A DNA stretch of 34,445 nt from Bacillota bacterium. GTDB lineage: Bacteria; Bacillota; Sulfobacillia; JAMDAP01; JAJYMS01. This document shows positions 2,836-14,897 of this stretch, piece by piece. Below the pieces are notes generated by a model. The model worked only from the letters and a program-made list of their open reading frames with translations. It did not search any database and was not told where the DNA came from. The stretch's first letter is position 1. The number at the start of each line of letters is the position of its first letter. Location: positions 1 to 34,445 of the forward strand of contig JBGFRN010000305.1 of the NCBI GenBank assembly GCA_041695105.1. Reading direction: 5' to 3'. The translations under genes and the position numbers were made by a program.

Positions 2836-3129
2836 TTAGCTCTCGACGATCCTGGGTACCCGAAAGCCTCCGGCGGCCGGATCGGGGGCGTTCTGAAGGG
2901 CCGCCTCATGGGCGAGTCCCTGGCGGACCTGATCTGGCCGCAGAACGTTGACCAAGCTATCCAGGATGTGATAAGTCGGTGGAACCTCCGTGGTATCCAA
3001 TTCCCGCAGCTTTTCCACATGCTCCAAGAGTTGGTTCAAGTGCTTGGTGTAAAGCTCTTTTTCCCCTTCCGAGAGGTGAACCCTGGCCAGACGGGCGATG
3101 CGCTGGACCTCGGACCGGTCAATCCGCAT
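2836..3129 (-). CDS. gatC: Asp/Glu-tRNA amidotransferase subunit C (GatC)
   Basis: 97 aa beginning [23 protein letters not shown]..., which is GatC-like. It lies directly upstream of gatA. Confidence 0.9.
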
Positions 3130-3156: not shown

Positions 3157-3179
3157 AAAAGCCCGCCGCGGGGCTTTTT
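3157..3179 (-). terminator. GC-rich hairpin with flanking A/T runs; probable terminator of the upstream Etf/Fe-S operon (bidirectional in form)
   Basis: aaaagccc-gccgcg-gggcttttt. On the minus strand the stem is followed by TTTTGTGGTTT. It lies between the stop at 3263 and the gatC start at 3129. Confidence 0.5.
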
Positions 3180-3188: not shown

Positions 3189-3197
3189 ATTATACCA
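3189..3197 (-). promoter_or_regulatory. Extended -10 element TGGTATAAT (minus strand) upstream of gatC
   Basis: The reverse complement of attatacca is TGGTATAAT. The same nonamer occurs at the gerM-like promoter (31073-31081). Confidence 0.3.
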
Positions 3198-3262
3198 CAC
3201 GGAAATAAATCGGGGCAAGGAACGTACAGCCCACGACGATGACCGCCTCAAACATGTGTTGG

Positions 3263-5317
3263 TCAGGGCAGGGAATCGCCCCGGCTCGACGGTTCCGACT
3301 CCACCATCGCCTGAAGCAGCAACTCCGCGATGTCCATGACTATGGGCCCATCATCCACAACCGTAGTCTTGATTCCGTCGTCCAACATCTGCATGCAGAA
3401 GGGGCAGCCGGTGGCTACCACCTCGGCTCCTGCCTTGCTCGCTTCAATTGCCCGGATCTGGTTCACCCGGAGGCCATGGGTCTTCTCCTCCATCCAGGCA
3501 TGGGCTCCGCCGGCACCGCAGCAGAATGAATGGGCTCCGGTTCGCTGCATTTCCTTCTGGGTCACGCCTGCTTCCGCCAGCACAGCCCGTGGAGAATCGT
3601 ACTCGCCGTTCCACCGGCCCAGGTAGCACGGGTCGTGGAAGGTAACGCTCCGGTGTAAGCCGACGTTCGGTTTCAGCCGGCCGCTGTCTATCAACTCCTT
3701 TAGCAGCCGGGTGTGGTGAACCGCCTCAAACTGCCCGCCGAGCTTGCGGTACTCCTGCCCAATGGCGTTGAAGCAGTGCGGGCAGGTGGTGATAATCCGC
3801 TTCGGGTTATACTGCCGCAGGAGCTCAATATTTTGCCGGGCAATTTTATCAAAAAGAAATTCATTGCCCATCCGTCGGGCCGGGTCGCCGCAGCAGATCT
3901 CCTCCTTGCCCAGGATGGCGAACTTCACATCGGCCGCCCTCAGCAACTCGACAAACGCCCTCGCGATCTTCTGAGCCCGGGGATCGAAGGTGGCGGCGCA
4001 GCCCACATAGTACAGGATCTCCACCTTGCCAGCCTCCGCGGCCACGGGGGTGTCGAGCCCCTCGGCCCAGTCGAGGCGACTGGCCTTAGTCCCCTTGAAG
4101 GGATGAAAGCGATCTTCCAGGCTCCGCATCGCATCCTGCACCGTGTCCGGGGCGCAACCCTGCTCCATCACCAGGTGCTGACGCATACCGACGAGCTTCG
4201 GCCCGTGCTCAATGGATACCGGGCAGGCCTCCATGCAAGCCCGGCAAGTGGTGCAGGCCCAGATCGTCTCCTCCTTCACCGCCCCGCCTACCAGCGGCGT
4301 CAACTCTTCAACCTTCACCCGACCGGCGAGCAACTTCGGCCCGTGCTCATGCATGTAATCCCGCACATCCAGGATCAGGTTACGCGGCGACAGCGGTTGG
4401 CCGGAGGCGTAGGGCGGGCAGACCGCCTGGCACCGGCCGCAGGCAGTGCAGGCGTCGAGGTCCAAAAGGTCCTTCCAGGTAAAGTCGGTAATCGCGCTCT
4501 TCCCGAACCGCTCCGTCGCCTCGAAATCGATTGGCTCAAGCGTCTCGCCGGGCGCGCGCAGCTCGCCGAAGTAGACGGAGGCGGTGGAGGTGAAGATGTG
4601 GATCAGCTTCGAATACGGAATGTAGGCAATCCAGGCAAAGACACTGACGAGGTGGAACCACCAGGTCCATTGATAGGCCCCTACGATGACGGCCTGGCTC
4701 AACCCCACCAGGGGCTTGGCCAGTAAGTACCCGAAGGGGGACCAGACGTCCCAGGGCTCGGGCCGCCCGGCGATGCGCAGGGCCTCCAGCGCGAAGCCCT
4801 GTGCGAATATGAGAAAGAGTGCCGCCAGTGTAACTGCGTCACTTGGATCATGTCGGGCGTGACTCCTAGTGTGCTGCAGCCGTTCCACCCGAATGACGTA
4901 GCGACGGACCAACGCGATACCCAGCCCTGCCATGCCCAGTGCGCCAGCCACATCCAGAACGAGCGACTGGAACACTAGATAGAACCAGCCCCTCATGATG
5001 GGAATCCCGAGATCCGCCTCCATAGCAACAACCGTCGTGCCAACGAACAAGAGGGACATCGCCCAAAAAATCAAGGCGTGCATACTGCCGGCGACCCTAT
5101 CCTGCATCAACCGGCCGTGGCCGAGGAGGTAAACGGCTACCCGCCCGAGCCGCCGCCAGGGCTGATCCGTCCTTAGCACCTGCTGGCCCAGTCGCCAGAG
5201 CCGGAACCGCCGGTACAGGCCGTAAGCAAATATAATCATGGTGGGGATCATCAGAAGGTACATGAGGTAGATTCCGCTGATATTCCAGTAAATGGGGCGC
5301 GTGATAATATCCTGCAC
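3263..5317 (-). CDS. Membrane Fe-S oxidoreductase: N-terminal NarI/DsrM-like polytopic membrane domain fused to an HdrD/DsrK-like domain (2x[4Fe-4S] plus two CCG cysteine-rich domains). Resembles the EtfAB-associated quinone oxidoreductase type
   Basis: 684 aa. The first ~250 aa are hydrophobic with conserved His residues (HALIFW, WFHLVSVF, KLIHIF). Ferredoxin motifs CTACGRCQAVCPP and CTTCRACMEACPV follow, then CCG-type motifs VGCAATFD, TCPHCFN, HDPCYLGR and TGCPFCMQM. GTG start with GGAGGT RBS, 24 nt after etfA. Confidence 0.85.
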   Translation of the reverse strand: MQDIITRPIYWNISGIYLMYLLMIPTMIIFAYGLYRRFRLWRLGQQVLRTDQPWRRLGRVAVYLLGHGRLMQDRVAGSMHALIFWAMSLLFVGTTVVAMEADLGIPIMRGWFYLVFQSLVLDVAGALGMAGLGIALVRRYVIRVERLQHTRSHARHDPSDAVTLAALFLIFAQGFALEALRIAGRPEPWDVWSPFGYLLAKPLVGLSQAVIVGAYQWTWWFHLVSVFAWIAYIPYSKLIHIFTSTASVYFGELRAPGETLEPIDFEATERFGKSAITDFTWKDLLDLDACTACGRCQAVCPPYASGQPLSPRNLILDVRDYMHEHGPKLLAGRVKVEELTPLVGGAVKEETIWACTTCRACMEACPVSIEHGPKLVGMRQHLVMEQGCAPDTVQDAMRSLEDRFHPFKGTKASRLDWAEGLDTPVAAEAGKVEILYYVGCAATFDPRAQKIARAFVELLRAADVKFAILGKEEICCGDPARRMGNEFLFDKIARQNIELLRQYNPKRIITTCPHCFNAIGQEYRKLGGQFEAVHHTRLLKELIDSGRLKPNVGLHRSVTFHDPCYLGRWNGEYDSPRAVLAEAGVTQKEMQRTGAHSFCCGAGGAHAWMEEKTHGLRVNQIRAIEASKAGAEVVATGCPFCMQMLDDGIKTTVVDDGPIVMDIAELLLQAMVESEPSSRGDSLP

Positions 5318-5341
5318 GGCTCGAGTACCTCCGGAGCATGA

Positions 5342-6322
5342 TTACGCCAGTATTTTCCTCAATTCGCTGGTCAGAACCGGGAGGACGTTCCTGAAGTCGG
5401 CGACGATCCCAATGTTGGCACGCTTGAAGATGTGGGCGTCCGGGTCCTTGTTGATCGCGACCACCGTCTTGGCCCCGGCGATACCAGCCAGGTGTTGGCT
5501 GGCGCCCGAGATCCCTACGGCGATATAGAGATCCGGAGCCACAATGGCCCCGGTCTGCCCGATCTGCCGGTCCGCCGGCAGCCAGCCGGCATCGCAGACG
5601 GCGCGGGAGCCGCCCAGGGAGCCGCCAAGCAGGTCAGCCAGTTCCTGCATTTCCATGAATGGCTTGGGACCGCCCAGACCACGCCCGCCACCGACGATGA
5701 TCCGGGCGTCCTCCAACCGCTTGCCGCTGATGGCCTCCTGAATTTTCTCCACCAGCCTGGTGACGGCATCGGCCTCAGAGACCTGGAAGGTCACGTCCAC
5801 CACTTCGCCGGTGCGGGCCGGGTCGGCTATGGCCGGTTCCTGGCTCTTCAGTCGCACGCCAATCACGCTGCGGGTCCTGGTGGTGGTGTACTCGCCCAGC
5901 GCTTTGCCACCGTAGACCGGCCGGATCCATCGGACGTGGCCGCCACCGGCCTCAAAGCCCACCACCTCGGTAAGGGCCGAGGCGCCGAGACGGTAGGCAA
6001 GCCGCCCGACGAGGTCCTTTCCGGCCAGATCGAAGGGTAGCAAAAAGACGGTGGCATCCGACTGGCGGGCAGCCGCACTCAGGGCGCCGAGGTAGAGGTC
6101 AACCTGATACTCCGCCAGAAGTGGGTTCCGGACGGCCAGCACCCGGGAAGCGCCACAGGCGATCGCTTCAGCGGCAGCCTCCGCGGCGGGGCCGATCAGC
6201 ACCGCTTCCACAGTACCACCGCCGGTGGTGCCGGTCAGGCTGGTGCCCAGAGCAAGGGCCTCCCGAGCGCCGCCACTAAGACGGCCATTCTCACTGGCTG
6301 CATAAACGAGCACGTTCGGCAT
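5342..6322 (-). CDS. etfA: Electron transfer flavoprotein alpha subunit
   Basis: 326 aa. The C-terminal FAD-binding region reads ...IVGGGRGLGG...GGSRAVCDAGW...QIGQTGAIVAPDLYIAVGISGASQHLAGI... It follows etfB. Confidence 0.9.
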   Translation of the reverse strand: MPNVLVYAASENGRLSGGAREALALGTSLTGTTGGGTVEAVLIGPAAEAAAEAIACGASRVLAVRNPLLAEYQVDLYLGALSAAARQSDATVFLLPFDLAGKDLVGRLAYRLGASALTEVVGFEAGGGHVRWIRPVYGGKALGEYTTTRTRSVIGVRLKSQEPAIADPARTGEVVDVTFQVSEADAVTRLVEKIQEAISGKRLEDARIIVGGGRGLGGPKPFMEMQELADLLGGSLGGSRAVCDAGWLPADRQIGQTGAIVAPDLYIAVGISGASQHLAGIAGAKTVVAINKDPDAHIFKRANIGIVADFRNVLPVLTSELRKILA

Positions 6323-6340
6323 GGCTCGTTCTCCTTCCGA

Positions 6341-7135
6341 TTACAGTATCTTGAGTTCTTGCAGGCGGCTGGCCAGGATGGCCGCCTGCGCAGGTCCCTC
6401 ATCGCCAGGCAGGATCTCGCAGGCCACATCGTTTTCGGGAATAAAGGCCCGCTCCAGGCGTGTGCCGGGCTGTAGCCGATCCGGTTCAGCGCCGATGTCG
6501 CCCAAACCCAGCAGTTTGATAGGTTTGCTCTTGGCCAGCATGGCGTCCTTCACCTTGGGGAGCCGGGGAACATTCGCCTCTGAACTGGTGACTGTCAGTA
6601 CCGCTCTCACGGGTACCTGGAGAACTGCATGGCCGTCGCCGGTTTCCCGTGTGGCCCTGACCTGCCCCCCTTCCAGGGCCAGGCGGGAGACCAGGGTTAT
6701 ACAAGGATAGCCCAGCTCCTCAGCCAGGATTGGGCCAACCAGCCCTTCCTCCACATCGCCGGCCTGGCGGCCGGTCAGAATCAGCGCGTCTCCGCCCAGC
6801 GCCTTGATCGCCAAGGCCAGTACGTGGCCGATTACCGCGCCGTCGGCCAAGGCCAGGCGGGGATCCCAAACACGAACGGCGGCGTCCGCCGTGAAGGAGA
6901 GCGCCCGCCGGAGCGCCTCCTCAGCCGGCTTATCTCCCACGGTGATGGCGGTGATCCTCTTGCCGGGAGTTCGTTCCTTGAGTTGAACCGCCATCTCCAG
7001 GGCGTTCTCGGAGTAGGAGTCCATTACCATCCGTGCGTTGCCCTGGACAGGCTGGTTGGTTGCCGGGTCGATCCGGAAGTCCCGGGGAGGGATCTCCGGG
7101 TCGAGTACTTGCTTAACGCAAACGATCACATCCAT
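6341..7135 (-). CDS. etfB: Electron transfer flavoprotein beta subunit
   Basis: 264 aa beginning MDVIVCVKQVLDPEIPPRDFRID... The N-terminus and length are typical of EtfB. Confidence 0.9.
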   Translation of the reverse strand: MDVIVCVKQVLDPEIPPRDFRIDPATNQPVQGNARMVMDSYSENALEMAVQLKERTPGKRITAITVGDKPAEEALRRALSFTADAAVRVWDPRLALADGAVIGHVLALAIKALGGDALILTGRQAGDVEEGLVGPILAEELGYPCITLVSRLALEGGQVRATRETGDGHAVLQVPVRAVLTVTSSEANVPRLPKVKDAMLAKSKPIKLLGLGDIGAEPDRLQPGTRLERAFIPENDVACEILPGDEGPAQAAILASRLQELKIL

Positions 7136-7162
7136 CTGTCTTTGCCCCTTTCGGCACAGTCT

Positions 7163-8668
7163 CTAATCGGCCTCTTCCTCGGTGCCCAACAGGGCAAGGG
7201 AAGCTGCACGCTCACCAGCGATCTTGCCGAGAACGGCGCCCGTGGTCAGGCCCGTGCCTCCTGGGTAATTTTGGTAGAAAAGGCCGCCGACCAGCTCACC
7301 GGCCGCAAAAAGGCCGGGGATGGGGTTGTTCTCCTCATCCAGGACCTGTGATTGGGTATTCACGCGGAGGCCGCCAAAGGTAAATGTTATGCCGCACGTA
7401 ACGGCGAAGCCGTAGTATGGCGGCGTATCGATGGGTAGCGCCCAGTTGGTCTTGTCCACCGCCAGGCGGGCGGTGGACTTACCGTCCTTGACGGACAGGT
7501 CGTAGGGGTTTTCATTAATCGAGGCGTTGAACTCCCTGACGGTCTCCGTAAGACCCTGAGGATCGATGTCAAGCTGCGAGGCCAGTTCTTCAAGCGTGTT
7601 GGAAACCGCCTTGGTGACCTCCCTGATCCGGTACTCGTCCCGGAGCTTCGTGACGACCTTGGAGTCGAAGATCTGCACGGCATAACGGCCGGGCTGCTTC
7701 ATGACCTCCTGACCATACTTGGCGTAGGTATAGTTGCGGAAGTCGGCCCCCTCGTCAAGGAAGCGCTGGCCGTTCCGGTTGACGACGATGCCCAGGGGAT
7801 ATGAGTGCTTCTGGAAGGACTCGCCAACTTTTCGGTCACCGGTGGTCGGGGCGTTCGCATCCCACATGACGGCGTGGCAGCCGCTCCAATGGCCGTACGA
7901 TTGGGCGCCCACCTCCAGAGCCATCCGAATACCGTCACCAGTGTTGAACTCGGTGCCCCGTACCTTGGCAAGATCCCAGCCCGGGCCGAGGTATTGGGCC
8001 CGCAACTGGGGGTTTGATTCAAAGCCGCCCGCCGCCAGGATGACCGCAGGGCACTCAACGTCGACATCCTTACCCGCTCGTTTCACCTTGACCCCGCAGA
8101 TGCGGCCTTCGGCGTTGGTAATCAGCTTGTGGCCGCGGGCGTTGTACCAGATCTCAAGGCCGTGCTTCTGCGCAGACTCGAATAACATTTCGACGAGGCC
8201 GACGCCCCCGCCGACGTACTCCACCGGAACCTCCCCCCAGAACTTGAACTTTTGCCCTGATTTAAAGGCCTGGCGGCCGGTGGATAGCGCGAAGCGGATG
8301 CCCTTCTCGCGCATCCAAACCATGGTAGGGAACGCCTCGGTCACGACGACGCTGGTTAATTCGGGGTCGGCCATGTATTCGGTCACCCGAGCGATGGTTT
8401 CAAAAAACTGCTCCTCGCTGTAGGAGCCCACATCGATCGACTCAATCTCCGCCTCGCTCAGATCCGGGATCAGCTTGAGCACATCCTCGATGCCGTTGTA
8501 GGGAAAGCGGACCAGGCCCCCGGTGAAATATGAGTTTCCCCCGCGCTTCTCCTCCGGGGCCCGTTCCAATACCAGCACCTTCGCCCCTTGCTCCCTGGCC
8601 GCAATTGCAGCGCAGAGAGCGGCGTTGCCCGCACCAACCACCACCAGATCATACCGAAACCTTTCCAT
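7163..8668 (-). CDS. FAD-dependent dehydrogenase of the fumarate reductase/succinate dehydrogenase flavoprotein superfamily, TcuA (tricarballylate dehydrogenase)-like
   Basis: 501 aa. The N-terminus DLVVVGAGNAALCAAIAAREQGAKVLVLERAPEEKRGGNS resembles the TcuA dinucleotide-binding start. The motifs AAGGFESN and ...SGCHAV.WD... and the C-terminal GLFAAGE are also present. GGAGG RBS. Confidence 0.72.
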   Translation of the reverse strand: MERFRYDLVVVGAGNAALCAAIAAREQGAKVLVLERAPEEKRGGNSYFTGGLVRFPYNGIEDVLKLIPDLSEAEIESIDVGSYSEEQFFETIARVTEYMADPELTSVVVTEAFPTMVWMREKGIRFALSTGRQAFKSGQKFKFWGEVPVEYVGGGVGLVEMLFESAQKHGLEIWYNARGHKLITNAEGRICGVKVKRAGKDVDVECPAVILAAGGFESNPQLRAQYLGPGWDLAKVRGTEFNTGDGIRMALEVGAQSYGHWSGCHAVMWDANAPTTGDRKVGESFQKHSYPLGIVVNRNGQRFLDEGADFRNYTYAKYGQEVMKQPGRYAVQIFDSKVVTKLRDEYRIREVTKAVSNTLEELASQLDIDPQGLTETVREFNASINENPYDLSVKDGKSTARLAVDKTNWALPIDTPPYYGFAVTCGITFTFGGLRVNTQSQVLDEENNPIPGLFAAGELVGGLFYQNYPGGTGLTTGAVLGKIAGERAASLALLGTEEEAD

Positions 8669-8841
8669 TGAGTGATTGCCTCCTAGACATTATTGCAAAA
8701 TGGAAGGCCCAGCCTTGGCCATCGCTCCGTAGGGAGGGGGAAGGCCAGGAGACTGGACCTGTAGCCGGTTAAGCCACGATGCGACTCGAGGGTGCCGGGT
8801 ACAACAACCAAACAGAGATGTAGTTGTAGCAAGCGGAATCT

Positions 8842-9909
8842 TTACACCGCTCGAAGCTGATTGACCACCGCAGAGCCCATCTCCTCAGTGCTAGCTGTGC
8901 CCCCGATGTCACGCGTGCGGATGCCCAGGGCCAGAACGGCTGTCACCGCCTCCTGAATCCGTACGGAGGCCGAAATCGCGGCGCTATCGGCATTCCGGAT
9001 TCCCAGCCAGCGAAGCATCAGCGCACCCGAAAGGATCTCGGCGCAGGGGTTGGCAATCCCCTTGCCGCCGATGTCCGGGGCAGATCCGTGGGTAGCCTGG
9101 GCCATCAAATTTCGGTCTCCGACGTTGAGCCCGGGTGCCAGCCCCAGGCCGCCGACGAGGCCGGAAGCCTCATCCGAGAGGATGTCACCGAAGGCGTTGG
9201 TAGTTGCTATCACGTCGAAGATCTGGGGCCGCATCACCAGATGCATGGCCGCCGCATCGACATGCAAGTCATTGACCTCGACGTCCGGATAATCCCGTCC
9301 TACCTCCCGGCAGGCTGCGATGAACAGCCCGCACCCGTGCCGGAGCACGTTGGCCTTGTGGACGATCGTCAACTTCCTGCGCCGGCCCCGTGCCAGTTCA
9401 AAGGCAATCCGGGCCAGCCTCAGCGACATGCGCCGTGTGACCACCCGTACCGAAAGCACCGTGTTCTCGTCGGGTCGGAACTCGCCGTTTCCGTCCAGAA
9501 GGTTGCGGTCGGCGTAGAAGCCCTCCGTGTTTTCCCGGACCACCACGAGATCGACGTCTTTGTATAGGCAGGGCACCCCCGGCAAGGAGTGGACCGGGCG
9601 GACGTTGGCGTAAAGCTCGAACTTCTTGCGTAGCAGACCGCTCACATTGGTCATGGACGAACCATTGTAGAGGTGGGTCGTCAGCGGGCCGAGCAGCCAG
9701 CCCTCACAGGCCTCAATCACCGGCAGGACTTCCGCCGGCATGGTGGAACCAGTCAGACGGAACGCCTCAAGCCCCACCGGACAAGACCGGAATTCGAGGT
9801 CCAGGTCCGTTGTGGACGCTGCTGTAGCCTCCAGCACCCTGACGGTCTCGCGCACGATTTCCGGCCCGATTCCGTCCCCGGGCATGACGGCAATTCTGTA
9901 ATGGCCCAT
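8842..9909 (-). CDS. Isocitrate/isopropylmalate/tartrate dehydrogenase-family NAD(P)-dependent beta-hydroxyacid oxidative decarboxylase
   Basis: 355 aa. Family hallmarks present: IAVMPGDGIGPEI, VRENTEGFY, NAFGDILSDEASGLVGGLGLAPG and HGSAPDI. Confidence 0.85.
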   Translation of the reverse strand: MGHYRIAVMPGDGIGPEIVRETVRVLEATAASTTDLDLEFRSCPVGLEAFRLTGSTMPAEVLPVIEACEGWLLGPLTTHLYNGSSMTNVSGLLRKKFELYANVRPVHSLPGVPCLYKDVDLVVVRENTEGFYADRNLLDGNGEFRPDENTVLSVRVVTRRMSLRLARIAFELARGRRRKLTIVHKANVLRHGCGLFIAACREVGRDYPDVEVNDLHVDAAAMHLVMRPQIFDVIATTNAFGDILSDEASGLVGGLGLAPGLNVGDRNLMAQATHGSAPDIGGKGIANPCAEILSGALMLRWLGIRNADSAAISASVRIQEAVTAVLALGIRTRDIGGTASTEEMGSAVVNQLRAV

Positions 9910-9960
9910 TCGGTCTCGTTACCTCCATTCCGTGGCCTCTCCTCCGGTACATCCGGCCCA

Positions 9961-11937
9961 TCAGAGGATCGGGAAGATCCCCTCCGGCCAAGTTACGCCG
10001 AGAGTCCAGTTCAACAGGGCCAGGGTGCCAAGGACGCATGCTAAATAAGCAACTGCGCCCGTCCACATGCTACGGTTCATCGTCCTCAAAAAGAGGACTG
10101 TGAACAGGATCACAGCGACAATGAAGCCAACAATGTAGCTGAGAGCCACCAGACCGGCCAGCCAGCCGAACGCCACCAGCCCGCTGAGTTGCTTGTTGCT
10201 GAGGCGCACCTTGGACGGAGAGGTCCGGAGCTTCCGGTAATCAGCCACGACCAGAACAAGGCCGAGGATGGCAGCCGGGATGGCGGCAAGCATCGGTACC
10301 ATTTGTGCTTCACGACCATACCCGAACGAGCTGACAAGCGCGCCTGCGAAGACCACCAGGAGTGCCGCACTGACTGCAAACGCCCAACTGGGATCGCAAG
10401 GCTCCTCGCCATCTTCCTCCTTCTCCTCCACCGCGGCTGCAAGGGGGGCTAGTTCGTTCCTGACGTTGGCTTCCTTCTTCTGGGATCTCCAGACACTCCA
10501 CACCGTCGACAACACAAGCAGGCTGGCCATCCCCAGCACCCAGGGCCGAAGCATCCATTCACCGGGTTGGTACAGCTTTGCAGTCAGCCAGTAATAACGC
10601 TCCACCGGAAGCGCCAGCACGAAACCGATCAGCAGGGGACCACGAGGAAAGCCTGCCTGCTTCAAGACCCACCCAATGAGCCCAAGGACCACCATGAAAA
10701 CCATCTCACCGATCTGACGACTCTCGTTATAGACGCCAAGAACCATCAGCACCACCAGGCCGGGGACCAACAGGGTGAACGGCACTGACGAGAGGCGGGC
10801 CAAAGCCGGGCTGACCAAGAAGCAGATAGCGGCCCCCAGCACACTAGCGAGGGCGAAGGACCAGATGATCACATAGACCATGTCGAGGTGGTCCGTGATC
10901 ATACGGGGGCCGGGCTGGATGCCGAAGAACAGCAGGACGCCCATCAGAATGGCGGCAGGTGTGCCCCCAGGGATGTTGAAGAGCAGGGTCGGGATCAGGT
11001 CACCTGCCTCACAGGCGTTATTGGCGGCTTCCGGGGCAATCAGGCCCCGGACATCGCCCTTGCCGAACTTGCTCCGGTCCTTGGACGTGGCAACCGCCTG
11101 GCCATAGGCCATGAGTGACCCAGCAGTGGCACCGACTCCCGGCAGGACACCGGCCCAAATGCCGATCAGGGAACCCCGCAAGACCTGCCATTTATGAGTC
11201 AGAAAGTCTTGAATGCCCAGCGACCAACCGGAACCCACCGAAATCCGGTTCGCAATGGCACCACCCGTACCAAGCATCTCTGCCATTTCAGCGAGGCCAA
11301 ACACCCCGAGGGCGATAGCGATCAGCGGCAGCCCGTCCATCAGGTGCTCAAAGCCCCCGGTAAAGCGGTACTCGGCGGCGTTGGGCGCCGCACCAACCAT
11401 GCCCAGGAAGACCCCGAAGAATGCCGCGACCAGACCCTTGGCCATATTCCCCTGTGACAGGGTGGCGGCGAAGCTGATGCCCATAACGCACAACATGAAC
11501 AACTCCGGAGCGCCAAAGCTCAGGATAATGGGACGAGCGATTGGGATCGAGAGGGTAAGCCCGATAGCGCCCATAAGACCTCCGGCCATAGAAGACAGAA
11601 ACGAGACCGACAGGGCGCGGGCGGCCTGACCCTGCTTGGCCAGGGCATGGCCGTCTAGCATGGTCACAGCGGCGGAAGCTGAGCCCGGGGCACCAATCAA
11701 CACAGCGGAGATGGTGTCCGATGTATGGACGACCGCCAGGGCACCGATCATCAGCGCCAGCGCCGCCCCGGGCTCCTTCATGCCCATTGCGAATGGCAGG
11801 AGCAGTGCCGCCGCAGCGGTCCCCCCGAGGCCGGGGATTATACCGATGATGGTGCCGGAGATGACGCCAGCTACCAGCATCATCATCATCCCGGGGTCGA
11901 GGAATGAGGCGAGCGCTTGCAGGGCTGCGTCAATCAT
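9961..11937 (-). CDS. tctA: Tripartite tricarboxylate transporter large permease TctA with a C-terminal TctB-like four-helix extension (fusion)
   Basis: 658 aa. The first ~500 aa form a polytopic TctA-like permease. An acidic linker (AAVEEKEEDGEEP) follows, then ~150 aa with four hydrophobic helices. It lies next to tctC, and there is no separate tctB ORF. Confidence 0.82.
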   Translation of the reverse strand: MIDAALQALASFLDPGMMMMLVAGVISGTIIGIIPGLGGTAAAALLLPFAMGMKEPGAALALMIGALAVVHTSDTISAVLIGAPGSASAAVTMLDGHALAKQGQAARALSVSFLSSMAGGLMGAIGLTLSIPIARPIILSFGAPELFMLCVMGISFAATLSQGNMAKGLVAAFFGVFLGMVGAAPNAAEYRFTGGFEHLMDGLPLIAIALGVFGLAEMAEMLGTGGAIANRISVGSGWSLGIQDFLTHKWQVLRGSLIGIWAGVLPGVGATAGSLMAYGQAVATSKDRSKFGKGDVRGLIAPEAANNACEAGDLIPTLLFNIPGGTPAAILMGVLLFFGIQPGPRMITDHLDMVYVIIWSFALASVLGAAICFLVSPALARLSSVPFTLLVPGLVVLMVLGVYNESRQIGEMVFMVVLGLIGWVLKQAGFPRGPLLIGFVLALPVERYYWLTAKLYQPGEWMLRPWVLGMASLLVLSTVWSVWRSQKKEANVRNELAPLAAAVEEKEEDGEEPCDPSWAFAVSAALLVVFAGALVSSFGYGREAQMVPMLAAIPAAILGLVLVVADYRKLRTSPSKVRLSNKQLSGLVAFGWLAGLVALSYIVGFIVAVILFTVLFLRTMNRSMWTGAVAYLACVLGTLALLNWTLGVTWPEGIFPIL

Positions 11938-11987
11938 TACAAGCTACCCCTCCTTTACTTATTGAGTGAATCGACTCCGGAGCATGC

Positions 11988-13145
11988 TTAGAACTTCACG
12001 TTATACTTGTTTTTCAGAAGCTCGGTAACCCACTTGCGGACGTCGTCGGGAATCGCCATGGTGGAACGGAGGGCCTGCTCAACGTCCTTGCCGACCAAGG
12101 TCGGGTAACCGCCGATCACTTCCTTGCCCTTTTGAATGAATTCGGGATCCTTAGCCATATTTGCGTAGGCCTTGTAAAGCGCCTCCATAGCTTCAGTCGG
12201 AGTGCCTTCGGGCGCCCAAATAGCCTTTTGGTAGGCGAACGCAGCCGAGTTGAACGCCAGGTACGCTCGCCAGGCCGGTCCCTCTGGCTTCTTGCCGTGG
12301 ATCTTCTCATAAAGCTCGCCAACATGCATGAGATCACCGACAACGGGATCGCGCTCCAACTGTCCCTTGCTATCGATAACTCCGAAGCTGGCCAGGGGGG
12401 TAGCCTTCTGCTCCTTGATTAGCTGGATGACACTGGCCTGGTAGGCAGAGGTGGTCTGATAGTCGATGTTGGTCTCTCCGCGCTCAAATGCAAGGCGGGA
12501 AGGGCCTCTGCCCTCAAAGCCTAGCACCGTCTTAACGTTCAGCCCTAGCAATTCAAAGCTCAGGAGCGGGACCAGATCGAGGCCCGTTGCGCTGATGCCC
12601 CCGTAGGTGAGGGACTTGGGCGGCTTTCGCAACTGCTCGACCGTCGCTCCGTTTTTCGGCGAGCTGTAGAGGACCCCGCCGGTCGCATTGACGCCGGCCA
12701 GCTTCCACTTGGTAACGTTGTACTTTACTTCCGGCCGTCCGAGCATGTAGGGGAGAGTCGTTGACGCCGAAGAGGCCAGGAGCATTAACCCGTCGGGCTT
12801 GGCATTCTGCTGGAACCAGTTGGCTCCAATAATGCTTTCGCCGCCAACCATGTTTCTGATGACGATCTTGGGGTTGCCTTCGATGTGCTTTTCCAGGTAC
12901 GGAGCGACAAAGCGTGCGTACAGATCCGTTCCGCCGCCTGCAGCAAAGGGCACCACTAGCTCGATGGTCTTCCCCTGGTAATACGGAGTGGCGGAAGCCT
13001 TGGGCTGTGTGTTCGGGTTGGCGGCAGGTGCCTGCTTCTCCTGAGCCTTCAGGGCGTTACAGCCCGAGAAGGCCACGGCCAGCAATACGGCGACCAGCGT
13101 CAGAGCCAGCGAGCGGACCCGTTTCCGTGAAGTATCAAACGTCAT
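11988..13145 (-). CDS. tctC: Tripartite tricarboxylate transporter substrate-binding lipoprotein (TctC/Bug family)
   Basis: 385 aa. It has a signal peptide with lipobox AFSGC. The mature part contains Bug-like motifs (VVPFAAGGGTDLYAR). It is adjacent to tctA. Confidence 0.8.
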   Translation of the reverse strand: MTFDTSRKRVRSLALTLVAVLLAVAFSGCNALKAQEKQAPAANPNTQPKASATPYYQGKTIELVVPFAAGGGTDLYARFVAPYLEKHIEGNPKIVIRNMVGGESIIGANWFQQNAKPDGLMLLASSASTTLPYMLGRPEVKYNVTKWKLAGVNATGGVLYSSPKNGATVEQLRKPPKSLTYGGISATGLDLVPLLSFELLGLNVKTVLGFEGRGPSRLAFERGETNIDYQTTSAYQASVIQLIKEQKATPLASFGVIDSKGQLERDPVVGDLMHVGELYEKIHGKKPEGPAWRAYLAFNSAAFAYQKAIWAPEGTPTEAMEALYKAYANMAKDPEFIQKGKEVIGGYPTLVGKDVEQALRSTMAIPDDVRKWVTELLKNKYNVKF

Positions 13146-13186
13146 CTGCTATTCCCCCCATGTGTTAATATTTTGACTGGTAGTGC

Positions 13187-14356
13187 TTAGGGCAGTAATG
13201 CCTTATTGAGTAAAGCGAGCCTGGCTTCGGGCAGGTAAGCGGTACCGGCCATAATGCGACGTGCTGTGCGGCTGGTCACAGCGCGGGTGAGGCGATACTC
13301 TTCGCCTTCCTTCCGGACAGTCACCTCACATTCCAGCGAACCGCTGGGATGCCCAAGCCTGAACACTGGCAGGCAGGTCAGATCAGCCACCTCGGCCACC
13401 GCAGTCCCGGGGATGGCGGCTGCCGTAGCGGTACAGATTGCCGCGCTGATGGCGTAGGCTTTGTGCGGCTTCTGCATTGACATCATTCGGGCGGTGACGT
13501 GGATATCCGCTGCCGAGACGGTGCTACCGTCAATGGTCCGGTAGGACATAGGCGGAGCAACGACTGCCACCTTGGGCAGCGAAGGCACCCGCTCGGTCGC
13601 CACGCGCCAATCGGGAACGAAGCCGAGCCACTCGCAGGCATGACTGCGGATCTCTTCTAGGGCCTTTGTAGCACCGCACTTAATGATCAATTCCTTCGGT
13701 AATTCCATCCCGCTGAGGCCCAGTTCGGAGGCAAAAACGAAGACGGTTGGGTTTCCTGCGTCCACCAGGGAGACGGTATAGGTGCCACTGGGGGTTTTCA
13801 TGGTTTCCCAGGGGTTCCCGGTAGGCAGCAGACGGCCCGTCTTGGCCCCGCCGAGGCCCTTGTAATCAAGCGCGATGCGGCTACCAGTTCCCGGCACCCC
13901 GCTGATAGCCAAGCTGCCTTCGCTCTGGAACTGGCCGTTCCGGGTCGGCACTTCCGCCACCACGATAGCTCCCGTGTTTATGTCCTGGATGCGGACGACG
14001 GTGATCCCCTCAACTGGCGCCACGAGCCCCTCATCCAGGGCGAACGGCGCTACCGCGGAGATCAGATTGCCGCAGGTGCCTGCCCGGTCCACCAGGGGCC
14101 GGGTGATGCTGACCTGCCCAAAGCGGAAATCGACGTCGGCCTCAGGGAGTTCCGAACGGCTGACAACGGCCACTTTGCTGGTGAGCGAGTCCCCCCCGCC
14201 CAGTCCATCAATCTGCCGTAGGTCGGGACTCCCAAAAAGGGCCAAAATAATTTGGTCCTGCGTTTCCAGATTTTCCGGCAATACCTCCTTACGCAGAAAT
14301 ATTCCTTTGCTCGTCCCGCCACGGTAAATGGCACAAGGTATTGTGTTTCCTACCAA
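13187..14356 (-). CDS. PrpF-family isomerase (2-methylaconitate/aconitate isomerase, methylitaconate isomerase-like)
   Basis: The PrpF N-terminal hallmark IPCAIYRGGTSKG is present, and the length is ~390 aa. I place the start at TTG 14356-14354, preceded by AAGGGGGG. The longer track ORF (GTG at 14443) runs through a terminator hairpin. Confidence 0.8.
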   Translation of the reverse strand: MVGNTIPCAIYRGGTSKGIFLRKEVLPENLETQDQIILALFGSPDLRQIDGLGGGDSLTSKVAVVSRSELPEADVDFRFGQVSITRPLVDRAGTCGNLISAVAPFALDEGLVAPVEGITVVRIQDINTGAIVVAEVPTRNGQFQSEGSLAISGVPGTGSRIALDYKGLGGAKTGRLLPTGNPWETMKTPSGTYTVSLVDAGNPTVFVFASELGLSGMELPKELIIKCGATKALEEIRSHACEWLGFVPDWRVATERVPSLPKVAVVAPPMSYRTIDGSTVSAADIHVTARMMSMQKPHKAYAISAAICTATAAAIPGTAVAEVADLTCLPVFRLGHPSGSLECEVTVRKEGEEYRLTRAVTSRTARRIMAGTAYLPEARLALLNKALLP

Positions 14357-14400
14357 GACCCAGCCCCCCTTGGTAACTAAGAACCGTCGTGGGCGGGCAT

Positions 14401-14431
14401 AAAAAAACAGCCCGCAGTAATGACGGGCTGG
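14401..14431 (-). terminator. Rho-independent terminator (minus strand) downstream of the DUF3870-like gene
   Basis: On the minus strand the sequence reads cagcccg-tcattactg-cgggctg followed by TTTTTTT. Confidence 0.65.
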
Positions 14432-14561
14432 CTTTGTCCACACTCCTGCATCCTCGGTTGTACCCGACTAGCCGTGTGGAAAACAGCTATTGAAGATTGT
14501 TAATTCAACCTATTTAGTCGAAGTCCTGCTTATTAAATAAATCTTAACAAAAAAAATGAAT

Positions 14562-14897
14562 CTACACCTGGCCTTCGGACCGGCTTGCCTTCAATACCGG
14601 CCAGCGCCGCCACAAATCCTTGGTCGCGGCCACCAGTGCGTTCTGAGCCGCCCCATGGTAGCAGTCTCGGATCTCATGCAACACCACATCCACGTTATCG
14701 TTTAGGCTCCGCCCAACTAAGATCCGGGAAAAGAAATCTCTGCCGTGATCAGTTATCAGTGATGCCGTTGAACGGAGGATCACTCCATACTGGGTCTCAG
14801 CCTCCGCCGTTACGGCCAGCGTATCGAAGAGACCTTTGGCCGCCATCCCCTGGGGCAGCGCTGCGTGTCCAACCAGGTAGACCGTGCCAACTGGCAT
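14562..14897 (-). CDS. Small conserved hypothetical protein, DUF3870-like
   Basis: 111 aa. The pattern TVYLVGHAALPQG....YHGAAQNALVAATK recalls DUF3870 proteins of Firmicutes. This assignment is from memory of the family and is not verified. Confidence 0.5.
   Translation of the reverse strand: MPVGTVYLVGHAALPQGMAAKGLFDTLAVTAEAETQYGVILRSTASLITDHGRDFFSRILVGRSLNDNVDVVLHEIRDCYHGAAQNALVAATKDLWRRWPVLKASRSEGQV

What the first reader, a model, noticed from the sequence alone, without database searches (positions are those of the whole stretch)
3263..14356. Tricarboxylate-type operon that couples a TcuA-like flavoprotein to EtfAB and a NarI/HdrD-fusion membrane Fe-S oxidoreductase
Eight co-directional genes have 18-173 nt gaps, each with its own SD sequence, and there is no regulator gene. 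They encode a PrpF-family isomerase, a TctC lipoprotein, TctA-TctB, an isocitrate/isopropylmalate-family dehydrogenase, a TcuA-like FAD dehydrogenase, EtfB, EtfA, and a 684-aa protein with a heme-b-type membrane domain, two [4Fe-4S] motifs and two CCG domains.

Two facts are established. In Salmonella, TcuA is reoxidised by its own membrane Fe-S partner, TcuB. In syntrophic fatty-acid oxidisers (Syntrophomonas, Syntrophus), EtfAB plus a DUF224/CCG membrane Fe-S oxidoreductase carries electrons from acyl-CoA dehydrogenases to menaquinone.

In this operon the ETF-to-membrane module sits behind a non-acyl-CoA, TcuA-like dehydrogenase. It is bundled with a TTT importer, an aconitate-type isomerase and a beta-decarboxylating dehydrogenase. 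By inference, this is a self-contained route for oxidising an imported tri- or dicarboxylate (tricarballylate, aconitate isomers, or an alkyl-substituted analogue), with electrons delivered to the quinone pool via ETF. No aconitase/hydratase or CoA-transferase is encoded here, so neither the substrate nor the reaction order is obvious.
Basis: partly seen in the sequence, partly recalled or inferred. Interest (0 to 1): 0.72.

Follow-up and report, generated by a model that had tools for sequence, protein, structure and literature searches.

The report
ETF-wired carboxylate dehydrogenase operon
A bacterial operon joins a carboxylic-acid importer, an isomerase and two dehydrogenases to its own electron-transfer flavoprotein and membrane iron-sulfur/heme protein; this suggests that a large family annotated as "tricarballylate dehydrogenase" passes its electrons to the respiratory chain by a route not described before.

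Summary
Eight co-directional minus-strand genes (3263-14356) encode the stated families, with gaps of 18-173 nt and a Shine-Dalgarno (SD) motif before each.

Three corrections:
- The 684-aa membrane protein belongs to the solved EtfD/EMO family of ETF:menaquinone oxidoreductases. All cofactor ligands are conserved.
- The "TcuA-like" flavoprotein is only 37% identical to genuine Salmonella TcuA and fails the TcuA equivalog model. It belongs to a very large sister family that never sits beside tcuB.
- A ninth gene (DUF3870) and a conserved leader RNA with a terminator lie just upstream. "No regulator" is therefore doubtful.

The main new evidence is comparative. The window and all seven independent relatives with at least 65% identity have etfB-etfA immediately downstream of the flavoprotein; three relatives also have EtfD. 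PrpF, Iso_dh and an anion transporter (TTT, DASS or MFS) recur around them.

Best reading: a catabolic operon for an imported tri- or dicarboxylate, in which a dedicated ETF plus EtfD replaces TcuB. The substrate and the direction of electron flow are not settled. I found no description of this wiring in the literature searched. It is a new variant built from known parts.

The parts
14562..14897 (-). DUF3870 protein (111 aa). Small cytoplasmic protein of unknown function; recurrent neighbour of the flavoprotein.
   Evidence: PF12986, 79.5 bits. Homologues flank the TcuA-like gene in L001, L002, L003/4, L166 and L178. 38 homologues were found, and the named ones are all Bacillota; GHAxLPQGMAA motif, invariant except its A12 (>=90%). 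AlphaFold2 (AF2) model pLDDT 88.7, with no significant PDB fold match.
14400..14493 (-). Conserved structured leader RNA: a stem-loop (P1/P2) followed by an intrinsic terminator (hairpin 14430-14408 plus U7), just upstream of the PrpF SD.
   Evidence: Terminator scan. Conserved in L001 and L178/L179 at the same position, after DUF3870 and before the first catabolic gene. RNAalifold finds 27 pairs, 4 with compensatory changes among 3 distinct sequences. Covariance-model (CM) scores are 85-103 bits, by construction, and the model finds no further instance in 25 sources. No Rfam family matches.
13187..14356 (-). PrpF-family isomerase (389 aa, TTG start)
   Evidence: PF04303, 400 bits. Best solved relative is 3-methylitaconate isomerase 3g7k (314 bits), ahead of PrpF 2pvz (244 bits). 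Below the equivalog cut-offs of both prpF and OMA tautomerase. K61 and C95 correspond to the catalytic Lys/Cys of Mii (sequence inspection plus my knowledge).
11988..13145 (-). Divergent TTT-family (TctC/Bug-like) substrate-binding lipoprotein
   Evidence: Pfam TctC 22 bits, below the cut-off. PDB hits to BugE 2dvz (E=4e-11), BugD and the terephthalate-binding protein. BLASTP against a canonical TctC gives E=4e-10. Signal peptide with an FSGC lipobox. Homologue in L169 (37% identity).
9961..11937 (-). TctA-TctB fused membrane component of a tripartite tricarboxylate transporter
   Evidence: TctA 398.5 bits over residues 18-436. TctB 24.8 bits over residues 522-651, below the cut-off. L169 has separate TctA and TctB genes in the same order.
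8842..9909 (-). Beta-decarboxylating dehydrogenase of the isocitrate/homoisocitrate/isopropylmalate family; specificity unassigned
   Evidence: PF00180, 314 bits. Below every NCBIfam equivalog cut-off. Best PDB matches are Thermus homoisocitrate DH (267 bits) and NAD-IDHs. Substrate loop SSMTNVSGLLRK differs from NAD-IDH: Asn is kept, Ser is replaced by Met, and there is a 2-residue insertion. Paired with the TcuA-like gene also in L055, L085, L115, L167 and L178.
7163..8668 (-). TcuA-like FAD dehydrogenase/reductase (FAD_binding_2 family). A member of an ETF-linked clade, not genuine TcuA.
   Evidence: NF006130 583 bits, but TIGR02485 277 bits against a cut-off of 372. 37% identical to Salmonella TcuA. 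NJ clade of 9 terminals, all ETF-linked. Family-specific motifs FQKHSYP, FRNYTYAKYG and LFYxNYPGG are absent from TcuA.
6341..7135 (-). ETF beta subunit (EtfB)
   Evidence: PF01012. PDB matches: CarD 6fah and Geobacter ETF 5ow0. The motif GRQAGDVEEGLVGP replaces the GRQAIDGDTAQVG of CarD (A. woodii caffeyl-CoA reductase-Etf, a bifurcating ETF by my knowledge). 59% identical to the EtfB of the Caldinitratiruptor beta-oxidation locus.
5342..6322 (-). ETF alpha subunit (EtfA) with FAD-binding domain
   Evidence: PF01012 plus PF00766. 62% identical to the EtfA of the Caldinitratiruptor beta-oxidation locus.
3263..5317 (-). EtfD/EMO-type ETF:menaquinone oxidoreductase: NarI-like heme-b membrane domain, two [4Fe-4S] motifs and two CCG domains
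   Evidence: 365 bits, E=7e-108 to M. smegmatis EtfD 9ojn. All ligands listed in PMC13083937 are conserved, except that Thr539 is Cys here. H80, H222, H240 and 18 of the 19 ligand-equivalent Cys are invariant in 25 homologues; the exception is C476.

Best explanation
This is a catabolic operon of a Symbiobacteriaceae-like member of the Bacillota for an imported tri- or dicarboxylic acid.

Proposed steps:
1. A TTT system (lipoprotein binding protein plus fused TctA-TctB) imports the acid.
2. A flavoprotein of the fumarate-reductase/TcuA superfamily oxidises a -CH2-CH- unit next to a carboxylate, giving an enoate of the aconitate type.
3. A PrpF-family isomerase adjusts the position or geometry of the double bond.
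4. A housekeeping hydratase (aconitase or isopropylmalate-isomerase type, not encoded here) hydrates the enoate.
5. The Iso_dh enzyme oxidatively decarboxylates the resulting 2-hydroxy acid (hydroxyl beta to the carboxyl that is lost) to a 2-oxo acid.

The distinctive step is reoxidation of the flavoprotein. The TcuB partner of genuine TcuA is absent. Instead the operon carries its own EtfBA and an EtfD/EMO-type membrane protein, which carry the two electrons through four Fe-S clusters and heme b to menaquinone.

Upstream, DUF3870 and a conserved terminator-containing leader probably control read-through into the operon.

Shown: gene content, family membership, conservation of EtfD cofactor ligands, recurrence of the flavoprotein-etfBA(-etfD) order, and separation from true TcuA/TcuB.

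Inferred: that the flavoprotein donates to ETF, the direction of flow, the reaction order, and the substrate. Tricarballylate/aconitate is the leading guess, at roughly 40%.
For: Recurrence of the wiring:
- The window and all seven independent relatives with at least 65% identity to the flavoprotein have etfB-etfA directly downstream on the same strand. Gaps are 0-70 nt, and 485 nt in L002. The loci are L165, L001, L166, L167, L169, L002 and L005.
- Only 5 of about 140 more distant loci have ETF nearby (Fisher p = 3e-10, although the loci are related).
- In the NJ tree these form a clade of 9 terminals, 9 of 9 with ETF.
- EtfD follows in L001, L005 and L169.
- The surrounding genes vary between these loci: TTT, DASS or MFS transporter, PrpF present or absent, Iso_dh present or absent, AFOR, peptidases. 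The flavoprotein-EtfBA unit stays constant.

No TcuB:
- No TcuB occurs in the window or beside any of about 165 family members.
- TcuB is found only beside a true TcuA, in L162 and Salmonella pHCM1.

Identity of the electron-transfer module:
- The 684-aa protein matches the cryo-EM EtfD, with heme His and all Fe-S Cys/His ligands conserved (PMC13083937).
- The same EtfBA-EtfD module (59-62% identity) sits beside beta-oxidation genes in Caldinitratiruptor. It is therefore the ordinary dehydrogenase-to-menaquinone chain, recruited to a new partner.
- Dedicated ETF+EMO modules within catabolic operons are documented (PMC10818641).

Carboxylate context:
- ETF, PrpF, TctC, PrpD, methylisocitrate-lyase-like and CoA-transferase genes are among the commonest neighbours of the wider family.
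Against: - There is no biochemical evidence that any FAD_binding_2 enzyme uses ETF.
- The substrate is unknown. Active-site motifs differ from TcuA, and the H504/R545 carboxylate clamp of fumarate reductases is replaced by Thr/Tyr.
- The Iso_dh substrate loop matches no characterised specificity.
- No hydratase is encoded.
- Oxidation of a succinate-like C-C bond with menaquinone is uphill and would need proton-motive-force assistance (my knowledge; compare PMC8805022).
- Four ETF-clade loci (L165, L002, L166, L167) show no EtfD in the sequence available; in L166 and L167 the contig ends close by, so it cannot be excluded.
- Some relatives sit among peptidase and AFOR genes rather than carboxylate genes.
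Confidence: 0.55

Rival explanations
1. Reverse flow, or enoate respiration. Menaquinol reduces EtfD, then ETF, then the flavoprotein, which acts as a reductase of an imported unsaturated acid (for example aconitate to tricarballylate). Iso_dh and PrpF serve the oxidative branch of a dismutation. This would be a free-acid analogue of the enoyl-CoA respiration of Syntrophus.
For: - EMO/ETF/acyl-CoA dehydrogenase is documented to run in the reductive direction in vivo (PMC8805022).
- The nearest solved relatives of the flavoprotein are reductases: flavocytochrome c fumarate reductases and urocanate reductase.
- Menaquinol to a fumarate-like acceptor is thermodynamically downhill (my knowledge).
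- It would explain why an oxidising Iso_dh and a reductase-like enzyme share one operon.
Against: - The catalytic Arg/His set of fumarate reductases is only partly kept.
- The closest named relatives of the host are Symbiobacteriaceae MAGs and Caldinitratiruptor microaerophilus, and the window encodes a c-type cytochrome domain protein; both suggest a respiring host (inference).
- The same module serves beta-oxidation in Caldinitratiruptor.
- No product exporter is evident.
Confidence: 0.2
2. Same wiring, but the substrate is a branched C5/C6 dicarboxylate of the methylsuccinate, itaconate, mesaconate or citraconate type, not a tricarboxylate. The route would run from methylsuccinate to the enoate, then PrpF-type double-bond shift, then housekeeping LeuCD hydration to 3-methylmalate, then the Iso_dh enzyme to 2-oxobutyrate.
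For: - The best solved relative of the isomerase is 3-methylitaconate isomerase, not PrpF.
- In the Iso_dh substrate loop, the Ser that binds the isocitrate gamma-carboxylate in IDH is replaced by Met (the role of that Ser is from my knowledge).
- Neighbours of the wider family include PrpD, methylisocitrate-lyase-like, CoA-transferase and enoyl-CoA hydratase genes, which are typical of C5-dicarboxylate metabolism.
- The flavoprotein's motifs differ from those of TcuA.
Against: - Iso_dh scores highest against isocitrate and homoisocitrate dehydrogenases rather than LeuB.
- The many conserved Arg/His/Lys in the flavoprotein would suit three carboxylates.
- Transporters of the TTT and DASS families carry both di- and tricarboxylates, so they do not discriminate.
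Confidence: 0.15
3. The ETF-EtfD module is functionally independent of the flavoprotein. It would be a housekeeping beta-oxidation electron chain that merely lies next to a carboxylate operon.
For: - The same module (59-62% identity) lies beside acyl-CoA dehydrogenase genes in Caldinitratiruptor.
- It lies beside unrelated sugar genes in a Symbiobacteriaceae MAG.
- The ETFs next to TcuA-like genes show no higher identity to the window's ETF than the beta-oxidation ETF does (no tree was built).
Against: - The window and seven independent loci, eight in all, keep the flavoprotein-etfB-etfA order with very short gaps while everything else changes.
- In L167 the ETF genes lie between two TcuA-like genes.
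- In the window the gaps are 27, 18 and 24 nt, with no terminator predicted between them.
- No acyl-CoA dehydrogenase is present in any of these loci.
Confidence: 0.07
4. The flavoprotein and EtfBA form a flavin-based electron-bifurcating or confurcating complex with NAD(H) and ferredoxin, as in Bcd-Etf, CarCDE or Ldh-Etf.
For: The best PDB hit of EtfB is CarD (caffeyl-CoA reductase-Etf of Acetobacterium woodii; bifurcating by my knowledge).
Against: - The GRQAIDGDTAQVG motif seen in CarD (characteristic of bifurcating EtfB, my knowledge) is not conserved. The window has GRQAGDVEEGLVGP, resembling the Geobacter EMO-linked ETF 5ow0.
- EtfA has no ferredoxin domain.
- A quinone-linked EtfD is encoded immediately downstream.
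Confidence: 0.03

Closest known systems
Salmonella enterica tcuRABC tricarballylate utilisation system (TcuA FAD dehydrogenase plus TcuB membrane Fe-S/heme protein plus TcuC MFS importer plus TcuR)
   Same: - An importer for a tricarboxylate-type anion is combined with a flavoprotein of the same superfamily that needs a membrane-bound Fe-S/heme route to the respiratory chain.
- NCBIfam NF006130 names both proteins TcuA (PMC2606687).
   Different: - The flavoprotein is only 37% identical to TcuA and scores below the TIGR02485 cut-off. Its active-site motifs differ.
- There is no TcuB, TcuR or TcuC.
- Electron exit is by EtfBA plus EtfD, and import is by TTT.
- The operon has an extra PrpF isomerase, an Iso_dh dehydrogenase and DUF3870.
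EtfAB plus EtfD/EMO (ETF:(methyl)menaquinone oxidoreductase) modules of beta-oxidation: M. smegmatis/M. tuberculosis EtfD, Syntrophus aciditrophicus EMO, Geobacter metallireducens bbs operon
   Same: - Same gene order, etfB-etfA-membrane protein.
- Same domain architecture. All cofactor ligands of the solved EtfD are conserved (PMC13083937).
- The module sits inside a catabolic operon, as in Geobacter (PMC10818641).
   Different: - The partner dehydrogenase is a FAD_binding_2 (fumarate-reductase/TcuA-type) enzyme acting presumably on a free acid, not an acyl-CoA dehydrogenase. No CoA ligase or transferase is present.
- The first CCG motif is intact (Cys476) where mycobacterial EtfD has Thr539, so a non-cubane [4Fe-4S] cluster rather than the linear [3Fe-4S] cluster is possible.
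- It lacks the ~30 kDa disordered C-terminus of the mycobacterial protein.
PrpF/Mii/aconitate-isomerase family enzymes in 2-methylcitrate, nicotinate-fermentation and aconitate pathways
   Same: PrpF fold family. The catalytic Lys/Cys pair is present. The context is unsaturated tri- or dicarboxylates.
   Different: - It scores below the equivalog cut-offs for both PrpF and OMA tautomerase.
- It is not accompanied by AcnD, PrpC/PrpB or the nicotinate-pathway genes.
hutP-type antitermination in the Bacillus subtilis hut operon (my knowledge): a small first gene, then a terminator-containing leader, then the catabolic genes
   Same: The layout matches: a small gene (DUF3870), then a conserved leader with an intrinsic terminator, then the structural genes, in three loci.
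   Different: - The DUF3870 model shows no detectable fold similarity to HutP.
- No RNA-binding evidence exists.
- In Brevibacillus and Pueribacillus, DUF3870 lies after acyl-CoA dehydrogenase genes, not before a leader.

Membership tests
EtfD/EMO ETF:menaquinone oxidoreductase | Significant full-length sequence similarity to a characterised or solved member | tested here: met
   9ojn M. smegmatis EtfD, 365 bits, E=7e-108, in two stretches covering residues 19-674.
EtfD/EMO ETF:menaquinone oxidoreductase | Heme-b axial His ligands in the NarI-like membrane domain (EtfD His78, His241) | tested here: met
   They align to window H80 and H240. H80, H222 and H240 are invariant in 25 homologues. H67 is also present, giving a NarI-like four-His pattern.
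EtfD/EMO ETF:menaquinone oxidoreductase | Two cubane [4Fe-4S] motifs and two CCG domains with the Cys/His ligands of clusters D1-D4 | tested here: met
   C290/293/296/300, C355/358/361/365, C440, C475, C512-P-H514-C515, C564, C599-C600 and C638/C641 are all present and invariant. EtfD Thr539 is Cys476 here.
EtfD/EMO ETF:menaquinone oxidoreductase | Encoded next to etfB-etfA | tested here: met
   Gaps of 18 and 24 nt. The same order is found in L001, L005, L169 and L177.
EtfD/EMO ETF:menaquinone oxidoreductase | ETF-dependent menaquinone reduction activity | not testable with these tools
   Requires biochemistry.
TcuA tricarballylate dehydrogenase (Salmonella type) | Scores above the TcuA/CobZ equivalog model TIGR02485 | tested here: not met
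   277.5 bits against a cut-off of 372.55. The broader NF006130 model is passed (583 against 369).
TcuA tricarballylate dehydrogenase (Salmonella type) | Partnered with TcuB | tested here: not met
   No TcuB in the window or in about 165 family loci. TcuB is found only beside true TcuA, in L162 and L171.
TcuA tricarballylate dehydrogenase (Salmonella type) | Shared active-site motifs with Salmonella TcuA | tested here: inconclusive
   Shared: RGGN, the active-site His (H265) and GITFT. Different: FQKHSYP against TRVDCV, FRNYTYAKYG against FWPKRYAIWG, LFYxNYPGG against NVLGKGYTAG, and FTGG against HTRN.
TcuA tricarballylate dehydrogenase (Salmonella type) | Oxidises tricarballylate to cis-aconitate | not testable with these tools
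   Requires an enzyme assay.
PrpF-family isomerase | PrpF Pfam domain over the full length, and the catalytic Lys/Cys | tested here: met
   PF04303, 400 bits, profile positions 4-371 of 371. K61 (SLTSK) and C95 (GTCGN) are present (sequence inspection). Equivalog cut-offs are not met.
Isocitrate/homoisocitrate/isopropylmalate dehydrogenase family | Iso_dh domain, and assignment to one substrate-specific equivalog | tested here: inconclusive
   The domain is met (314 bits). None of 16 NCBIfam models reaches its cut-off. The substrate loop is atypical.
Tripartite tricarboxylate transporter (TTT) | TctA, TctB and TctC components | tested here: met
   TctA is strong. TctB (24.8 bits) and TctC (22 bits) are below the Pfam cut-offs. 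TctC-like identity is supported by PDB Bug/TTT hits down to E=4e-11.
Electron-bifurcating ETF | EtfB motif GRQAIDGDTAQVG for the second FAD (my knowledge; as seen in CarD) | tested here: not met
   The window has GRQAGDVEEGLVGP, similar to Geobacter 5ow0 GRQSSDMDRGVV.

The most novel reading that the evidence does not exclude
The whole TcuA-like family, present in more than 599 species representatives and almost all annotated as tricarballylate dehydrogenase, would be a family of ETF-dependent enzymes acting on free carboxylic acids.

In this Bacillota clade, together with EtfD, it would support a menaquinone-linked respiration on free enoates (aconitate-type). This would be the free-acid counterpart of enoyl-CoA respiration.

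The operon would be switched by a previously unknown ligand-sensing leader RNA or a DUF3870-dependent antiterminator.
Probability: 0.15. Interest if true: 0.8.

Novelty: new variant of a known kind. Interest (0 to 1): 0.55.

Why it matters
**An answer for orphan flavoproteins.** Hundreds of genomes (SAR202/Dehalococcoidia, Rokubacteria, many Proteobacteria, Bacillota) carry a flavoprotein that pipelines name TcuA, with no TcuB to reoxidise it. This locus and its relatives give a concrete, testable answer for at least one clade: ETF, passed on to menaquinone through EtfD.

**A wider client list for ETF.** It would extend the clients of ETF/EtfD beyond acyl-CoA, amine and hydroxy-acid dehydrogenases to the fumarate-reductase/TcuA superfamily.

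**Relevance to EtfD as a drug target.** EtfD is being pursued as a tuberculosis drug target, so natural variation in its cluster ligands is of interest. One example here is an intact CCG motif where mycobacteria have Thr.

**An annotation problem.** The name "tricarballylate dehydrogenase TcuA" is probably over-propagated.

**Two experimental handles.** DUF3870 and a conserved terminator-containing leader offer a route to finding the inducer, and so the substrate.

Tried and rejected
- **Genuine TcuA.** Rejected. The protein is 37% identical to Salmonella TcuA, scores below TIGR02485, and has no TcuB nearby.
- **TcuB hidden in the window or in family loci.** tblastn with Salmonella TcuB found nothing except beside a true TcuA in L162.
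- **Close relatives in public collections.** JGI metagenome contigs and GTDB genomes gave nothing above 65% identity. The close clade came only from exact-protein look-ups of Logan contigs.
- **DUF3870 function by structure.** The AF2 model is confident, but Foldseek against the PDB gave nothing better than E=0.025 and TM 0.53. The only paper on DUF3870 concerns a Bacteroides surface protein domain and does not help.
- **Rfam match for the leader.** None.
- **More copies of the leader.** My covariance model found no further instance in 25 sources.
- **Is the L003 methyltransferase a trans-aconitate methyltransferase?** No, only 28 bits. It therefore gives no support for aconitate.
- **Do the ETFs next to TcuA-like genes stand apart from the beta-oxidation ETF?** Not by identity. 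The Caldinitratiruptor beta-oxidation ETF is as similar (59-62%) as those next to TcuA-like genes.
- **Iso_dh specificity from the substrate loop.** Inconclusive.
- **Literature.** Searches for TcuA with ETF, with PrpF or with electron transfer flavoprotein found no description of this arrangement. The papers of Garcia Costas 2017 and Vogt 2019 were not available.
- **First neighbour survey.** My greedy ORF caller lost genes in high-GC loci. I replaced it with tblastn and clustering.

Full report
**1. Observation**

The eight genes described lie on the minus strand at the stated coordinates. Profile searches confirm every family.

| Gene | Coordinates | Evidence |
|---|---|---|
| PrpF | 13187-14356 | 400 bits |
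| TctC-like lipoprotein | 11988-13145 | Pfam 22 bits, below the cut-off; matches solved Bug/TTT binding proteins down to E=4e-11 and a canonical TctC |
| TctA-TctB fusion | 9961-11937 | TctA 398.5 bits; TctB 24.8 bits, below the cut-off |
| Iso_dh | 8842-9909 | 314 bits |
| FAD_binding_2 flavoprotein | 7163-8668 | NF006130 583 bits |
| EtfB | 6341-7135 | PF01012 |
| EtfA | 5342-6322 | PF01012 plus PF00766 |
| Membrane Fe-S protein (684 aa) | 3263-5317 | two CX2CX2CX3C motifs, two CCG motifs |

Gaps between genes are 41, 50, 51, 173, 27, 18 and 24 nt. Each start is preceded by a GGAGG-like motif.

Downstream lie gatC and gatA. A promoter-like site sits in the 133-nt gap before gatC. Upstream lie an arginase gene and an opp-type peptide ABC operon, then ligA and pcrA.

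**2.

A ninth co-directional gene, 14562-14897, encodes a 111-aa DUF3870 protein. A strong intrinsic terminator (14430-14408, an 8-bp stem plus seven U) lies between it and PrpF. Only about 50 nt separate the terminator from the PrpF start. Transcription of the operon therefore most likely has to read through it.

This leader is conserved, and at the same position, in two independent relatives:
- L001: DUF3870, leader, PrpF.
- L178/L179: DUF3870, leader, Iso_dh (75% identity), TcuA-like (77% identity).

RNAalifold predicts a stem-loop followed by the terminator: 27 pairs, four of them with compensatory double changes among only three distinct sequences. One example is CCACAC/GUGUGG in the window against CUAUAC/GUAUAG in L001.

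The conserved 5' AGCUGUU could pair with the 5' half of the terminator, giving an antiterminator alternative. This is from sequence inspection only.

No Rfam family matches. My covariance model finds no further copies in the loci held.

**3. The membrane protein is EtfD/EMO**

It matches the cryo-EM structure of Mycobacterium smegmatis EtfD (9ojn) at 365 bits. I mapped the ligands listed in the structure paper (PMC13083937) onto the alignment:
- Heme His78 and His241 correspond to window H80 and H240.
- The Cys ligands of the two cubane clusters, of the linear [3Fe-4S] cluster and of the non-cubane [4Fe-4S] cluster, and His583, are all conserved. The motifs sit at residues 290, 355, 440, 475, 512-515, 564, 599-600 and 638-641.
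- All but residue 476 are invariant in 25 homologues, along with a third histidine, H222.

One difference: EtfD Thr539 is the substitution held responsible for the linear 3Fe cluster. Here it is Cys476, so the CCG motif is intact, as in HdrB.

The Syntrophus homologue EMO is a diheme/Fe-S ETF:methylmenaquinone oxidoreductase, and it works in both directions in vivo (PMC8805022).

The best named homologues are from Symbiobacteriaceae MAGs and from Caldinitratiruptor microaerophilus. This points to the likely lineage of the window.

**4. The flavoprotein is not TcuA**

- It passes the broad NCBIfam model NF006130 but fails the TcuA/CobZ equivalog TIGR02485 (277 against 372 bits).
- Genuine plasmid-borne Salmonella and E. 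coli TcuA, encoded next to tcuB, tcuR and an MFS gene, is only 37% identical.
- Among about 165 loci of the window's family, TcuB is never adjacent. It appears only beside a true TcuA, in L162.
- Motifs invariant in the family (FQKHSYP, FRNYTYAKYG, LFYxNYPGG) are replaced in TcuA.
- The His504/Arg545 carboxylate clamp of flavocytochrome c fumarate reductase aligns to Thr428/Tyr468.

The family is very large. More than 599 GTDB species representatives matched: Dehalococcoidia/SAR202, many Proteobacteria, Rokubacteria, Nitrospinota and others.

**5. Recurrence of the wiring**

Every relative with at least 65% identity that I could retrieve has etfB-etfA directly downstream on the same strand.

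| Locus | Identity to window | EtfD present |
|---|---|---|
| L165 | 85% | not seen |
| L001 | 81% | yes |
| L166 | 73% | contig ends after etfA |
| L167/168 | 71% | contig ends shortly after |
| L169/170 | 69% | yes (split into two genes) |
| L002 | 67% | not seen |
| L005 | 65% | yes |

In the more distant loci only 5 of about 140 have ETF nearby: L011, L015, L143, L149, and the Bradyrhizobium plasmid L172. Fisher's exact p is 3e-10, with the caveat that the loci share ancestry.

In a neighbour-joining tree the window falls in a clade of nine terminals, all ETF-linked.

The genes around the unit vary:
- L169: PrpF, hydrolase, TctC-like, TctA, TctB.
- L167: PrpF, GntR, PrpF, DASS transporter, Iso_dh, and a second TcuA-like gene after etfA.
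- L002 and L166: AFOR, DUF3830 and peptidase genes.

The flavoprotein-EtfBA unit is the constant.

In the other direction, the EtfBA-EtfD module of Caldinitratiruptor is 59-62% identical to the window's and lies beside a classical beta-oxidation cluster. The module is therefore the ordinary dehydrogenase-to-menaquinone chain, recruited to a new partner. Dedicated ETF+EMO modules inside catabolic operons are already known for acyl-CoA dehydrogenases in Geobacter and sulfate reducers (PMC10818641).

EtfB lacks the GRQAIDGDTAQVG motif seen in CarD and resembles the Geobacter ETF 5ow0. This argues against electron bifurcation.

**6. Pathway inference**

*Isomerase.* It has the catalytic Lys/Cys. 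Its closest solved relative is 3-methylitaconate isomerase. It reaches no equivalog cut-off.

*Iso_dh enzyme.* Its closest relatives are homoisocitrate and NAD-isocitrate dehydrogenases. Its substrate loop keeps the Asn of the IDH Ser-x-Asn motif but has Met in place of Ser and a two-residue insertion.

*Neighbourhood.* The commonest neighbour families of the wider flavoprotein family are TctC, SDR, aldehyde dehydrogenase, EtfA, PrpF, EtfB, enoyl-CoA hydratase, methylisocitrate-lyase-like, CoA-transferase and PrpD. This is the repertoire of branched and tricarboxylic acid metabolism.

*Best reading.* The acid is imported. The flavoprotein desaturates it. PrpF shifts or isomerises the double bond. 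A housekeeping aconitase or LeuCD-type hydratase, not encoded here, hydrates it. Iso_dh then oxidatively decarboxylates it. The electrons of the flavin step go to menaquinone via ETF and EtfD.

Tricarballylate/aconitate/isocitrate is the simplest instantiation. A methylsuccinate/citraconate/3-methylmalate route fits equally well on paper.

The direction of electron flow is not fixed by sequence. A reductive, menaquinol-driven "enoate respiration" remains a serious rival (PMC8805022).

**7. DUF3870**

Named homologues are all from Bacillota. They share a GHAxLPQGMAA motif, invariant except for one position that is conserved in at least 90%.

In Brevibacillus and Pueribacillus the gene follows a family-III CoA-transferase and an acyl-CoA dehydrogenase. 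In the window's clade it precedes the TcuA-like operon. In both settings it accompanies a flavin dehydrogenase; acyl-CoA dehydrogenases are known to use ETF, and the TcuA-like enzyme is proposed here to do so.

The AF2 model is confident (pLDDT 88.7), but it has no significant structural neighbour.

Its role is open. It could be an accessory factor of the dehydrogenase. Alternatively, given the layout of small gene, terminator, then operon, it could be a HutP-like antiterminator.

**8. Comparison with what is known, and novelty**

All the parts belong to known families. The ETF-EtfD chain is characterised.

What I could not find described is its coupling to a TcuA-superfamily flavoprotein in a CoA-free carboxylate operon. 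The DUF3870 and leader arrangement is likewise undescribed. The search covered open-access papers and bioRxiv only.

I rate it a new variant of a known kind, with moderate interest. It offers a testable electron acceptor for a very widespread family of flavoproteins that lack a TcuB partner. It suggests that the name TcuA is over-propagated. It also provides a candidate new cis-regulatory RNA.

Function, substrate and direction all remain to be shown experimentally.

Noticed in passing
window 14400-14493 (- strand); L001:7058-7158; L178:4358-4452: A conserved structured leader (stem-loop plus intrinsic terminator) lies between DUF3870 and the first catabolic gene in three independent loci. It shows compensatory base changes, has no Rfam match, and has a possible antiterminator pairing. 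It is a candidate riboswitch or protein-dependent attenuator.
   Followed up: partly
L173/L174 (Brevibacillus) 5401-8333; L175 (Pueribacillus theae) 3193-6039: In cultivated Bacilli, DUF3870 lies directly after a family-III CoA-transferase and an acyl-CoA dehydrogenase. So it accompanies acyl-CoA dehydrogenases there and the TcuA-like flavoprotein in the window's clade.
   Followed up: partly
window 3263-5317, residue 476 of the protein: The first CCG motif is intact (Cys476). M. smegmatis EtfD has Thr539 at this position, the substitution held responsible for its unusual linear [3Fe-4S] cluster. This position varies among 25 homologues while all other ligands are invariant.
   Followed up: partly
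L172 (Bradyrhizobium guangxiense plasmid p53363) 6297-15279: A proteobacterial family member (57% identity, annotated tcuA) has etfB-etfA divergently adjacent. It is followed by an SsuA/NrtA-type ABC importer, a CoA-ester lyase and a CoA-transferase. This is another ETF-linked context, with a quite different and possibly sulfonated substrate.
   Followed up: no
family-wide (L005-L164): NCBIfam NF006130 and JGI name this whole family 'tricarballylate dehydrogenase TcuA'. Yet members are about 35-37% identical to genuine TcuA and never neighbour tcuB. The name is probably over-propagated.
   Followed up: partly
L167:11530-13035: A second, divergent TcuA-like paralogue (44% identity) follows etfA directly, so the ETF genes lie between two flavoproteins. 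Similar 45%-identity paralogues recur next to PrpF in L003, L047, L110, L113, L114 and L141.
   Followed up: no
window 1331-3129 and 26533-30938: pcrA-ligA and gatC-gatA lie close together in Bacillus (my knowledge). Here they are separated by about 23 kb carrying a P-type ATPase, a cytochrome c domain protein, an opp operon, an arginase gene and the operon studied.
   Followed up: no
window 3157-3179 and 3189-3218 (- strand): After the EtfD stop there is a short hairpin, AAAAGCCC-CGCGGC-GGGCUUUU. It lies just downstream of a promoter-like site (TTGCCC, 18 nt, TATAAT, with TG) that precedes gatC. The order of promoter and hairpin is odd and unexplained.
   Followed up: no
window 31260-31559 and 32999-33298: Two 300-nt copies, 94% identical, lie inside two paralogous ORFs (31123-31671 + and 32988-33410 +). 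The roughly 1.3 kb between them has no ORF of 90 aa or more.
   Followed up: no
L169:3064-4302 and 13281-14720: L169 is the relative with the most similar overall architecture. It adds a beta-lactamase-fold hydrolase and a CocE/NonD-family hydrolase. This hints that the acid may be released there from an ester or amide conjugate.
   Followed up: no
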